Positions 6,001 through 9,000 of a stretch of 64,000 nt of DNA are shown here, one piece after another. Each line of letters opens with the position of its first letter. The stretch's first letter is position 1. The position numbers were made by a program. The DNA comes from Leucoraja ocellata. Taxonomy: Eukaryota. The DNA is taken from positions 1-64,000 of the forward strand of contig JAWMAR010000309.1 in the NCBI GenBank assembly GCA_036785375.1. Direction: 5' to 3'.

Positions 6001-9000
6001 ATGTGCTCTAGTCTGCAACATTTCCATCCTGAGAAAAAGGTTCTGACTGTCTACCCTATCTAAACCTCTCATAATTTTAAAGACTTCTGTTGGGTCTCCC
6101 ATCAAACTCTGCTTCGGAGAAACCAATCCTATAGAACATTTTAGCTTTCATTGGTGGTTGTCATAGTATGTAGCAAGTGTCATGGGATTTCTACTGATAA
6201 GTAATATTGTCTAAAGAAGGGTTTTGACCCGAAATGTCACCTATTCCTCTTCTCCAGAAAAGCTGCCTGACCCGCTGAGTTAGTCCAGCACTTTGTGTAT
6301 ATATTCAGTAAAAGTACTAAATCTGGAAATACTCAGCAGATCAGGCAGCATCTATGGAGAGAATGAAGCAGGGTTACTTTCCGAGTCGATGGTCTTTTAT
6401 CAGAACTGGGAATGATTCCAGATGGAGACACAAGGACCTGGAGATGGTGGAATCTTTAAACCGGGAACTCTGGTTTCCTCCCACATCCCAAAGATGTACA
6501 GGTTTGTAAGTTAATTGGCCTGGATTTAAAATAAAATGTAAATTGTCCCTAGTGTGTAGGATAGTGTTAGTGTACAGGGCGATCATTGGTTGTCGTGGAA
6601 TTGGTGGGACTCTGGCTCCAAAACAAGGAACAGGAGATACACAACAATGCTGGAGAAACTCAGCGGGTGCAGCAGCATCTATGGAGCGAAGGAAATAGGC
6701 AACGTTTCGGCCCGAAACGTTGCCTATTTCCTTCGCTCCATAGATGCTGCTGCACCCGCTGAGTTTCTCCAGCATTTTTGTGTACCTTCGATTTTCCAGC
6801 ATCTGCAGTTCCTTCTTAAACAAGGAACAGGAGATGATGGTTTGCAACAGGGGGATGAATTGGCAAGCAGCTCAACATCTTCAGATAATCAGCATTTCAA
6901 TTCCACATTTTCAGTTCACGCTCCATGTTTCTATAGTAATACCAGATAATCATTCCACACCTACACCTCCTCCAGATTACACTCTATTCCCATTACCACC
7001 ACTTTTTACTTTGCACGTCAGTTTTCACTCATCATTTAAATCTCCGACCTTCCGCCCAGTCCCGTAAATTAATTTAACCTGGGAATTATGCCATCAAGTG
7101 TCGGCCAATGCCATTGGTCCCGGCGCTAAACTCAGCCTGCCCATGCAGCCCGAATTGGTGGAGTAACTCTGCAGCTCAGGCTGCATCTGTGGAGGGGATG
7201 GACAGGTGTTTGTTTCGGGACGGGACCAATGGCATTGGCCAACAATTTCCGGAAGTGGGCGGAAGGTCGGAAATTTAAACGACGAGAGTAAAATGACGTG
7301 CAAAGTGAAAGGTGATGGTAATGGGATTAGAGTGTAGTCTGGAGGAGGTGTAGGTGTGGAGTGATTATCTCGTATTACTATAGAAACATGGAGCGTCAAC
7401 TGAAAATGTGGAATTGAAATACTGATTATCTGAAGAAAGGTCTCGACCCGAAACGTCACCTATTCCTTCGCTCCATAGATGCTGCCTCACCCGCTGAGTT
7501 TCTCCAGCATTTTTGTCTACCTTCGATTTTTCCAGCATCTGCAGTTCTTTCTTGACCGATTATCTGAAAATGTTGAGCTGCTAGTCGAATCCTGGAGAGT
7601 GAGGTGTCCAGTTGGAACTTGAGATGAAGGGTCCCGACCCGTAACATCGCCGGTCCATGTTCTCCAGAGATGCTGCCTGACCTGCTGAGTTAGTTTAGTT
7701 TATTGTACAGAGAACAGTGAAAAGCCTTTGTGTTGCATGCTATGCAGGCAGCAGAAATTCTACATAATCACGCCATCCACAGTGGCGGATGGGGTGGCAC
7801 AGTGGCGCAACTGGTAGAGCTGCTGCCTCGTGGTGCGGGAGACCCAGGTTCGATTCTGACCTCGGGTGCTGTCCCCACAGCCATCAGGCTATTAAACTTA
7901 ATGCATTTCGTTGTCTCTGTACTGTACACTGACAATGACAATTAAAATTGAATCTGAATCTGAATCACAGTGTACAGATAAAGGGTATGGCGTTCTGTTC
8001 AGCAAAGTTACTCGAGCACTTTGTCTTTTTGGTAATACAGCATTTGCAAGGTTTCAAGGTCAGTTTATTGTCACATGTACCAATTAAGGTACAGTGAAAT
8101 TCAAATTACCTTTGCAGTTCCTTGTGTCTACATTTTGCTGTTAGACTTGAGACTTTAGAGATACTGTGTGGAACGGCCCTTTGGCCCAACAAGTCCATGC
8201 TGACCAGCGATCACCCGTAGACTAACCCTATCCTACATACGAGGGACAATTTACAACTTAATGAAACCAATTAACCTACAAATCTGTACTTTGAGTGTGG
8301 GAGGAAATTGGAGCACCCGGAGAAAACTTACGCTGGCAAAGGGAAAACATGCAAACTCTGTACAGACAGCACCCGAGGATTGAACCTGGGTCTGTGGTGC
8401 TGCAAGGCTGCATCTCTACCACTGTGCCCTTCCTCAAGCTTCATTTGGGATGCTGAGTATAAAAAAACATAGAACACAGAACAGGAACAGGCCCTTGGGC
8501 CACAATATATGTGCTAAATATGATGCCAAGAGCTGCCTGCACTTGCTCCATGTCTCTCCACTCCCTGCATAGCCATGTGCCCATCCAAAGGTGTATTAAA
8601 TGCCGCTATCATATGCATTTATTTTATTTATTTTTTTTGCTAACTGTCACTTAAAATTCTGACTGTCTACCCTACCTGTATGTCTTATATTTTATAAACC
8701 TTTGCAGAGAGTTGTAGATGTAGCCCAGTCCATCACATTGAGCAAACTCCCCACCATTGACTCTATGACTCCATCCACACAACACTGCTTTGGAAAAACA
8801 GCCAACATAATCCAAGACTTATCCCACCCCTGGTCATTCTTTCTCCCCACAAGCGTCAGGCAGAAGGTGTAGATGCTTGAAAGCGTGCACCACCAGACTA
8901 AGGAACAGCTTCTTCCCCTCAGCTATCAGGCTTCTGAACAATCCTTCCATAAGCTCGGGTACTGTTCTTTTCAACTCCACCCCATTGCGGACATTGGACT

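What the first reader, a model, noticed from the sequence alone, without database searches (positions are those of the whole stretch)
6621..6835. Miniature fold-back PLE-derived insertions, each with its own TSD
Seen: at least four 140-220 bp inserts made of two inverted partial copies of the PLE terminal repeat, each flanked by a different direct repeat. These are 18 bp (6621/6818), 10 bp (9271/9423), 11 bp (17434/17660) and 13 bp (53349/53560). Similar pairs lie near 4300-4520, 35170-35345, 55245-55435 and 59070-59300. The inversion point lies in or next to the hammerhead-like motif, and in this copy it is within stem II. Inference: either a non-coding retrozyme/SINE-like family mobilised by PLE machinery, or extremely 5'-truncated PLE insertions showing the characteristic inverted terminal repeat, with the ribozyme structure directing the template switch.
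Basis: partly seen in the sequence, partly recalled or inferred. Interest (0 to 1): 0.65.

Follow-up and report, generated by a model that had tools for sequence, protein, structure and literature searches.

The report
Miniature head-to-head Penelope-type retroelement insertions
These are real, tiny retroelement insertions made of two inverted copies of the ribozyme-bearing end of a Penelope-type element, each flanked by its own target duplication; they are a scaled-down example of an architecture already described for such elements, not a new kind of mobile element.

Summary
All four quoted direct repeats are exact (18, 10, 11 and 13 bp). About 1.5 pairs are expected by chance, and 0 of 5000 permutations reach nine.

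The repeat is a module of at most about 225 nt. It carries a motif with the published traits of the Penelope-like element (PLE) minimal hammerhead, although no Rfam model matches it. It has two alternative 3' ends about 40 nt apart, which matches the PLE "tail". Seven of eight scorable fold-backs have one tailed and one untailed end.

Inner junctions differ between copies, so these are separate insertion events and not a propagating fold-back family. In three copies (C, D, E) each arm holds a segment the other lacks. This favours priming from both nicked target strands over one cDNA snapping back.

Junctions fall at model positions 43-83, around the ribozyme, in 17 of 18 arms. The 5' ends of ordinary short copies fall there too, so a ribozyme-directed switch is not shown.

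No PLE reverse transcriptase lies in the window, and the host genome could not be searched.

Verdict: a new member of a known kind, of moderate-low interest.

The parts
6621..6638 (.). Left copy of the 18-nt target-site duplication of fold-back B
   Evidence: Identical to 6818-6835.
6639..6710 (-). Fold-back B, untailed arm (antisense). Its outer end is at the proximal 3' site, about model position 140.
   Evidence: nhmmer and alignment; self-alignment matches 71 of 72 positions.
6704..6718 (.). 15-nt palindrome at the inversion point of B, centre 6711. It is inherent to this subfamily's helix II / GAAAC region.
   Evidence: Sequence. The same string occurs in the non-fold-back copy 29128-29155, so each arm's end is ambiguous across model positions 63-77.
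6712..6817 (+). Fold-back B, tailed arm (sense). It runs to the distal 3' site.
   Evidence: It is 96% identical to 29056-29137 and 92.5% identical to 7448-7553.
6818..6835 (.). Right copy of the 18-nt TSD of B
9271..9432 (.). Fold-back C with its 10-nt TSDs (9271-9280 and 9423-9432). The tailed antisense arm is 9281-9341 (model 183 to 116). The untailed sense arm is 9340-9422 (model 62-146).
   Evidence: The arms are unequal, and each holds a segment the other lacks.
17434..17670 (.). Fold-back D with its 11-nt TSDs (17434-17444 and 17660-17670). The tailed antisense arm is 17445-17564 (model 183 to 67). The untailed sense arm is 17565-17659 (model about 48-146).
   Evidence: 65 of 85 shared columns are identical between the arms.
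53349..53572 (.). Fold-back F with its 13-nt TSDs (53349-53361 and 53560-53572). The tailed antisense arm is 53362-53476. The untailed sense arm is 53477-53559.
   Evidence: (I9). 66 of 75 shared columns are identical.
4290..4521 (.). Fold-back A. It is older, both arms reach the tail, and it has a candidate 7-nt TSD at 4283-4289 and 4522-4528.
35168..35344 (.). Fold-back E. The untailed antisense arm covers model 61-143. The tailed sense arm starts at model 81, the predicted ribozyme cut site. No TSD was found.
55240..55431 (.). Fold-back G, with a 22-nt unclear spacer between the arms. No TSD was found.
58294..58450 (.). It belongs to a diverged subfamily, and one arm is cut short at model position 123.
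   Evidence: (I11).
59061..59296 (.). Fold-back I. Both arms reach model positions 43-48. It has a candidate TSD matching at 10 of 11 positions, at 59050-59060 and 59297-59307.
7435..7557 (+). Simple (non-fold-back) copy of the same subfamily as B, with an 11-nt TSD. It serves as the control insertion.
   Evidence: TSD at 7424-7434 and 7558-7568. A paralogous empty site is at 6880-6890 on the minus strand.

Best explanation
Each fold-back is the product of one insertion event of a short RNA. This RNA carries the ribozyme-bearing terminal module of a Penelope-like element, or of a non-autonomous derivative that uses PLE machinery.

The proposed steps are as follows.
1. The element's endonuclease makes staggered nicks 7-18 bp apart in the target.
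2. Both nicked strands then prime reverse transcription, as a purified PLE protein does in vitro. Usually one strand starts at the distal start site, so that arm carries the roughly 40-nt tail. The other starts at the proximal start site, so that arm has no tail.
3. Both cDNAs run back to the 5' region of the short template. That is the RNA's 5' end at about model position 47, the hairpin of hammerhead helix II, or the ribozyme cut site.
4. The two like-polarity cDNA ends are joined head to head, helped by the self-complementary helix II sequence or by short microhomology. They are then filled in. The result is two inverted arms inside one target-site duplication.

What is shown: the TSDs, the head-to-head enrichment, the two classes of 3' end, the variable junctions, and the arm-specific segments.

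What is inferred: the PLE enzyme, priming from both strands, use of one RNA's two start sites, and pairing through helix II.
For: Single events:
- Exact TSDs of 18, 10, 11 and 13 nt enclose both arms. A repeat of 10 nt or more occurred in 8 of 2000 random placements.

Not chance adjacency:
- There are 9 head-to-head pairs against 1.47 expected, and 0 of 5000 permutations reach 9. Only 1 tail-to-tail and 1 tandem adjacency occur.

PLE traits:
- The motif is CTGAAGA, one extra base, a helix II closed by G-C, GAAA, then ACGT with C before the cut. This matches the min-HHR traits in the passages of PMC4209133.
- Six intact cores occur in the window, against 0.2 in shuffles.
- Among the 36 non-fold-back hits, 16 end at model 174-183, 14 end at 134-158 and 6 end elsewhere. 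This fits the optional 30-40 bp tail that lies between two RT start sites (PMC11167929 main text; PMC8557442 passages).
- Seven of 8 scorable fold-backs have one end of each type (binomial P = 0.034).
- TSD length varies, as reported for PLEs (8-10 bp in PMC3846280 passages).

Two templated syntheses rather than one:
- In C, D and E each arm holds a segment the other lacks. The untailed arm alone holds model 62-115, 48-66 and 61-80 respectively, and only the other arm has the tail.
- Inner ends of the two arms are weakly correlated (r = 0.25).

In vitro precedent:
- The PAc protein cleaves and extends both target strands.

Insertion behaviour of the family:
- The simple copy 7435-7557 has an 11-nt TSD and a paralogous empty site.
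Against: - No PLE reverse transcriptase or GIY-YIG ORF is in the window. I scanned 129 of 130 ORFs of 85 aa or more; 36920-37204(+) was not scanned. The only RT found is L1-like.
- No Rfam hammerhead model matches. This holds at gathering score on the whole window and at E up to 10 on three copies.
- Only 2 base pairs of helix I are evident by eye.
- Fold-back A has tails on both arms, and H cannot be scored.
- Five of 9 fold-backs lack an exact TSD.
- B, A and I are equally compatible with a single cDNA snapping back.
[quoted passage not shown] The one-tail rule is therefore not explained by published data.
- D has a perfect 11-nt TSD, yet its arms are only 76.5% identical, with 16 transitions and 4 transversions.
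- Thirty-four of the 36 other hits show no exact TSD of 10 nt or more.
Confidence: 0.55

Rival explanations
1. Self-priming (snap-back). A single first-strand cDNA reaches the helix II palindrome or the RNA's 5' end, folds back on itself, and is copied to make the second arm. This is the self-priming idea proposed for PLE inverted pLTRs.
For: - B is a perfect palindrome centred in an inherent 15-nt palindrome.
- Arkhipova et al. 2013 report palindromes at inverted pLTR junctions and favour self-priming (passages).
- A has tails on both arms, as a complete copy-back would give.
- In A, B and I the tailed arm reaches at least as far inward as the other arm.
Against: - A copied-back arm cannot hold sequence that its template lacks. 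In C, D and E, and marginally in F, each arm has a private segment.
- Seven of 8 fold-backs have unlike outer ends, so the copy-back would have to stop about 40 nt short every time.
- Later deletions could mimic some of these patterns in old copies.
Confidence: 0.2
2. A propagating hairpin element. The fold-back itself is the transposing unit (a SINE-, MITE- or retrozyme-like family), transcribed from fold-back masters and reinserted.
For: - It would explain one tail per copy: the RNA 3' end is the tailed end, and the RNA 5' end is the untailed end.
- B's two arms share subfamily-specific variants.
Against: - Junction positions differ in all nine copies.
- B's variants are also shared with the non-fold-back copies 29049-29182 and 7426-7553, so the source need not be a fold-back.
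- The untailed end is also a 3' end of 14 non-fold-back hits.
- TSD lengths of 10-18 nt exclude a cut-and-paste MITE.
- Only 1 tandem adjacency is seen.
Confidence: 0.07
3. Two independent insertions. A second copy landed next to or inside an older copy in the opposite orientation, because the endonuclease prefers the element's own sequence.
For: - PLE endonucleases are reported to recognise their own tail or pLTR.
- B's own target resembles an antisense tail (weak hit, E = 0.0026).
- The older pairs lack TSDs, and some have arms of unequal divergence from the consensus (D 0.90 vs 0.79; E 0.79 vs 0.90).
Against: - In B, C, D and F the TSD encloses both arms, and no internal TSD is seen.
- The orientation bias of 9 head-to-head against 1 tail-to-tail is not expected from simple nesting.
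Confidence: 0.1

Closest known systems
Inverted pseudo-LTR architecture of endonuclease-containing Penelope-like elements (Arkhipova et al. 2013, PMC3846280; Craig et al. 2021, PMC8557442; passages read)
   Same: An inverted 5'-truncated copy abuts the direct copy head to head. There is a palindrome or overlap at the junction, an optional 30-40 bp tail at one end only, a short TSD of variable length around the whole unit, and solo pLTR-like copies.
   Different: Here there is no ORF between or beside the arms. The whole insert is 142-240 bp, so it is only the terminal module, twice. The junction palindrome coincides with hammerhead helix II. I did not see that stated in the passages I read.
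PAc (Poseidon of Anolis carolinensis) in vitro insertion system (PMC11167929; main text read)
   Same: Both target strands are cleaved and extended. Two internal RT start sites are separated by the tail. The hammerhead lies about 90 nt upstream of the start sites, and a short RNA spanning the ribozyme to the start sites is sufficient as template.
   Different: The in vitro work saw no strand difference in start-site use and did not report joined head-to-head products. There is no sequence relationship to the module here, and the enzyme for this family is unknown.
PLE minimal hammerhead ribozymes (Cervera and de la Pena 2014, PMC4209133; passages read)
   Same: The CUGANGA and GAAA core, an unpaired base between A9 and 10.1, a G10.1-C11.1 pair, a palindromic 15.2-16.2 with no helix III (which implies action as a dimer), and massive dispersed copy number.
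   Different: Cleavage is untested. Helix I is barely evident, and no Rfam model scores the motif.
LINE-1 5' inversion by twin priming (Ostertag and Kazazian 2001; recalled, not read)
   Same: The second nicked strand also primes reverse transcription, which gives an inverted 5' segment inside one TSD.
   Different: In L1 the two segments come from adjacent, largely non-overlapping parts of one RNA. Here the two arms copy the same 60-100 nt.
Animal non-LTR retrozymes (bioRxiv 10.64898/2026.07.22.740005; abstract and first part of Results read)
   Same: Short non-coding units carrying a type I hammerhead, related to PLE pLTRs, and found in vertebrates that have PLEs.
   Different: Retrozymes are defined by tandem arrays and circular RNAs. 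The window shows dispersed monomers and inverted pairs, with 1 tandem adjacency among 54 hits.

Membership tests
Penelope-like element insertion (pLTR-type module) | Hammerhead (min-HHR) motif inside the repeat | tested here: met
   The core with the extra base, the G-C closing pair and the palindromic ACGT occurs in 6 copies, against 0.2 in shuffles. The traits are as listed in PMC4209133 passages. The descriptor itself is in a figure or supplement that I could not see.
Penelope-like element insertion (pLTR-type module) | Head-to-head inverted 5'-truncated copy within one TSD | tested here: met
   Nine pairs against 1.47 expected. Four have exact enclosing TSDs.
Penelope-like element insertion (pLTR-type module) | Optional 30-40 bp tail, usually at one end only | tested here: met
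   The 3' ends are bimodal at model positions 140-158 and 174-183. Seven of 8 fold-backs have exactly one tail.
Penelope-like element insertion (pLTR-type module) | The same module at the ends of an ORF encoding a telomerase-like RT plus a GIY-YIG endonuclease | not testable with these tools
   None is in the window. I scanned 129 of 130 ORFs of 85 aa or more, and the only RT is L1-like. No eukaryotic genome collection was available.
Hammerhead ribozyme (Rfam Hammerhead_1 / 3 / II / HH9 / HH10) | Match to a curated covariance model | tested here: not met
   There were 0 matches at gathering score in the window. No hammerhead match at E up to 10 appeared on 41900-42200, 7380-7600 or 22900-23120.
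Hammerhead ribozyme (Rfam Hammerhead_1 / 3 / II / HH9 / HH10) | Self-cleavage | not testable with these tools
   This needs a transcription and cleavage assay of monomer and dimer constructs.
Non-LTR retrozyme | Tandem arrays of ribozyme-bearing units | tested here: not met
   One tandem adjacency (32714-32855) among 54 hits.
Non-LTR retrozyme | Unit-length circular RNA | not testable with these tools
   No RNA data were available.
MITE / fold-back DNA transposon | Fixed-length TSD and symmetric terminal inverted repeats | tested here: not met
   TSDs are 10, 11, 13 and 18 nt. The outer ends are unlike in 7 of 8 fold-backs.
LINE-1-type twin-priming inversion | Inverted and direct segments derive from adjacent, essentially non-overlapping template regions | tested here: not met
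   The arms share 25-97 model columns. The definition is recalled from memory.

The most novel reading that the evidence does not exclude
The self-complementary helix II of the PLE hammerhead may act at the DNA level. Two like-polarity cDNAs, primed from the two nicked target strands at the two start sites of one template RNA, would pair through it and be filled in. This would explain two long-standing PLE oddities at once: head-to-head inverted pLTRs with junction palindromes, and a tail at only one end. On this reading these miniature inserts are natural minimal records of that reaction.
Probability: 0.25. Interest if true: 0.6.

Novelty: new member of a known kind. Interest (0 to 1): 0.3.

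Why it matters
The way Penelope-like elements integrate is still poorly understood, in particular why they form inverted repeats and carry a tail at one end. Inserts this small contain nothing but the two priming sites, the ribozyme region and the junction. A genome-wide set of them would therefore give a clean readout of start-site choice, junction position and nick spacing for each event.

For annotation, such pairs should be read as single dead-on-arrival insertions. They should not be called MITEs or hairpin genes.

Nothing here points to a new class of element.

Tried and rejected
- **Rfam searches** for a hammerhead gave nothing relevant. This covered the whole window at gathering score and three copies at E up to 10. 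The first of those three copies (41900-42200) turned out to have a mutated core, so I repeated the search on two intact ones.
- **Search for a PLE ORF.** The RT at 36238-39368(-) is L1-like and is not flanked by the repeat. Pfam scans of ORFs of 85 aa or more found no GIY-YIG domain and no second RT. Shorter, decayed fragments were not scanned.
- **An early claim of mine was wrong.** I first held that copies never exceed about 180 nt. Three copies share about 40 more nt upstream, so the maximum is about 225 nt.
- **Self-alignment spacers were an artefact.** Self-alignment of each insert suggested spacers of 0-1 nt in 8 of 9. A sequence aligned to its own reverse complement is symmetric by construction, and the ungapped view showed true symmetry only for B. 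I used the profile coordinates instead.
- **Nearest-neighbour test of arms**. The partner arm is the closest relative only for B, and on one side for F. The older pairs are uninformative because all copies radiate from one consensus.
- **RNA fold of one unit**. It was not more stable than shuffles (z = -0.91), so I make no structural claim from it.
- **Literature searches** (listings only beyond the papers named) did not turn up a description of ORF-less miniature fold-backs. That does not show there is none.
- **Not available.** Paper supplements were closed. These include the HHR descriptor figures of PMC4209133 and Figs S1-S2 of PMC11167929, which may bear on the motif definition and the tail.
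Full report
**What is at the locus.**
Positions 6621-6835 read as follows:
- an 18-nt direct repeat at 6621-6638;
- an antisense arm at 6639-6710;
- a single central base at 6711;
- a sense arm at 6712-6817, which runs about 35 nt further outward than its partner;
- the same 18-nt repeat again at 6818-6835.

The arms match at 71 of 72 positions. When the same TSD search was run at 2000 random placements, a repeat of 10 nt or more turned up 8 times. The duplications are therefore not chance.

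**The repeat family.**
A blastn search with the sense arm found 34 matches in the window. I built a 183-position profile from eight non-fold-back copies, and nhmmer with it found 54 hits. The landmarks of the profile are:
- CTGAAGA at 53-59;
- one extra A at 60;
- a self-complementary helix II at 61-72;
- GAAA at 73-76;
- C-G-T-C at 77-80, which puts the predicted cut after position 80;
- a proximal 3' end at about 140-145;
- a distal 3' end at 178-183, plus 0-4 further bases.

Among the 36 hits outside fold-backs, 16 end at 174-183, 14 end at 134-158 and 6 end elsewhere. Their 5' ends pile up at 46-51, a few bases before the CTGAAGA box, and the upstream flanks are unrelated to one another. 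Some copies run further. The longest colinear similarity reaches about 225 nt from the distal end, which corrects my earlier figure of 180 nt.

One simple copy, 7435-7557, has an 11-nt TSD. Its empty site is preserved in a paralogous inverted duplicate at 6880-6890. This shows directly that the family inserts with target duplication.

**Fold-backs are a specific product.**
Eighteen of the 54 hits form nine adjacent minus-then-plus (head-to-head) pairs. There is only one tail-to-tail adjacency and one tandem adjacency. Random placement gives 1.47 head-to-head pairs on average, and none of 5000 permutations reached nine.

The five pairs without exact TSDs are the more diverged ones, with 67-81.5% of shared columns identical. 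Of these, 4290-4521 has a 7-nt candidate TSD and 59061-59296 has a candidate matching at 10 of 11 positions.

**Is it Penelope-like?**
No PLE coding sequence is in the window.
- The only reverse transcriptase, at 36238-39368 on the minus strand, matches LINE-1 ORF2p structures at E about 1e-41.
- No GIY-YIG domain was found among 129 of the 130 ORFs of 85 aa or more. One ORF, 36920-37204(+), was left out.
- No Rfam hammerhead model matches.

The assignment therefore rests on four architectural traits. Each is documented for PLEs in papers I read in part.
1. The motif has the features Cervera and de la Pena list for PLE minimal hammerheads: an unpaired base between A9 and 10.1, a G10.1-C11.1 pair, palindromic 15.2-16.2, and no helix III. 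Six intact cores occur here, against 0.2 in shuffles.
2. An inverted 5'-truncated copy abuts the direct copy.
3. A 30-40 bp tail is optionally present at one end. In vitro this tail was shown to be the stretch between two internal RT start sites, roughly 90 nt downstream of the ribozyme.
4. The TSDs are short and of variable length.

I put the PLE link at about 0.8.

**One event or a propagating hairpin?**
The inner ends differ in every copy. In profile coordinates, given as tailed arm / untailed arm:

| Fold-back | Tailed arm | Untailed arm |
|---|---|---|
| A | 47 | 68 |
| B | ambiguous within 63-77 | ambiguous within 63-77 |
| C | 116 | 62 |
| D | 67 | 44-48 |
| E | 81 | 61 |
| F | 65 | 57 |
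| G | 83 | 78 |
| I | 43 | 48 |

A carries a tail on both arms; the 47 end belongs to its right arm and the 68 end to its left arm. H cannot be typed by tail; its inner ends are 50 and 53.

That rules out descent from one fold-back master. B's diagnostic variants are shared with the ordinary copies 29049-29182 and 7426-7553, so its source need not have been a fold-back.

**One cDNA or two?**
A cDNA that snaps back can only duplicate what it already contains. In C, D and E the untailed arm holds 54, 19 and 20 positions respectively that the tailed arm lacks, and the tailed arm holds the roughly 37-nt tail that the other lacks. F is marginal, with 8 such positions. These copies need two separately templated syntheses.

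A purified PLE protein cleaves and extends both target strands, which supplies a mechanism. B, A and I fit either route. B's junction sits in a 15-nt palindrome (6704-6718) that is inherent to its subfamily, because the same string occurs in copy 29128-29155. Either an intramolecular hairpin or pairing of two cDNA ends would therefore produce it.

**The one-tail pattern.**
Seven of eight scorable fold-backs have one distal and one proximal outer end. A has two distal ends, and H is not scorable. With the 16:14 ratio seen in other hits, seven or more of eight has P = 0.034.

A simple reading is that the two target strands prime on the two start sites of one RNA. This is inference. The in vitro study saw no strand bias in start-site use.

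**Does the ribozyme direct the junction?**
Seventeen of 18 inner ends fall at positions 43-83, which spans the motif. Against all other hits this is a real difference (16 of 36; P = 0.0003). Against the other hits of the short class it is not clearly different (16 of 23; P = 0.059). The junction lies where cDNAs of this module normally stop, so a specific role for the ribozyme fold is possible but not shown.

**Unresolved points.**
- D has an intact 11-nt TSD, but its arms are only 76.5% identical and the differences are rich in transitions, 16 against 4 transversions.
- Most simple copies lack a detectable TSD.
- Whether the module is a dedicated short element or an extreme truncation of a full PLE cannot be decided without the genome. 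No eukaryotic collection was available, and paper supplements were closed.

**Verdict.**
The best reading is a miniature form of the known PLE inverted-repeat insertion. It is a new member of a known kind, useful mainly as a compact natural record of PLE integration.

Noticed in passing
window 6866-7131 and 7212-7592: A large palindrome of low-copy DNA (repeat finder I1 has 193-nt arms at 91%; I15 lies inside it). Its centre is a tail-to-tail pair of partial units: sense at 7115-7150 and antisense at 7151-7228. The right arm carries the simple insertion 7435-7557, and the left arm keeps the empty site. It could be an inverted duplication of flanking DNA made during an aberrant insertion.
   Followed up: partly
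window 6819-6848 (minus strand): The target site of fold-back B, including its 18-nt TSD, weakly resembles the family's own tail in antisense (nhmmer E = 0.0026). This hints at insertion into an older copy, as reported for PLE endonucleases.
   Followed up: no
window 34644-35054 (+): An open frame with an immunoglobulin V-set domain (Pfam E = 9.2e-10). It lies 114 nt upstream of fold-back E and is probably an exon of an Ig-superfamily gene.
   Followed up: no
window 36238-39368 (-): A broken LINE-1-type element. RVT_1 matches fall in two frames, and phmmer against human L1 ORF2p structures gives E about 1e-41. The region 36001-38000 has 31% G+C.
   Followed up: partly
window 6207-6309 (+) and 6319-6405 (-): The only tail-to-tail pair of the family. 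The two untailed 3' ends face each other 9 nt apart, and no TSD was found.
   Followed up: no
window 17445-17659: Fold-back D has an exact 11-nt TSD, but 20 of 85 shared columns differ between its arms, with 16 transitions and 4 transversions. Possible causes are two different template RNAs or editing.
   Followed up: partly
window 8151-8425, 16659-16940, 28109-28389, 30691-30973, 32862-33181, 40821-41104 and others: A second abundant repeat family of about 300 bp, with self-BLAST depth of 20-28. It was not characterised.
   Followed up: no
window 60621-60733 and 32714-32855: Two junctions where the proximal 3' end region, or a partial unit, abuts the start of another unit. They could be tandem or permuted joints of the kind retrozymes show. 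There are too few to judge.
   Followed up: no
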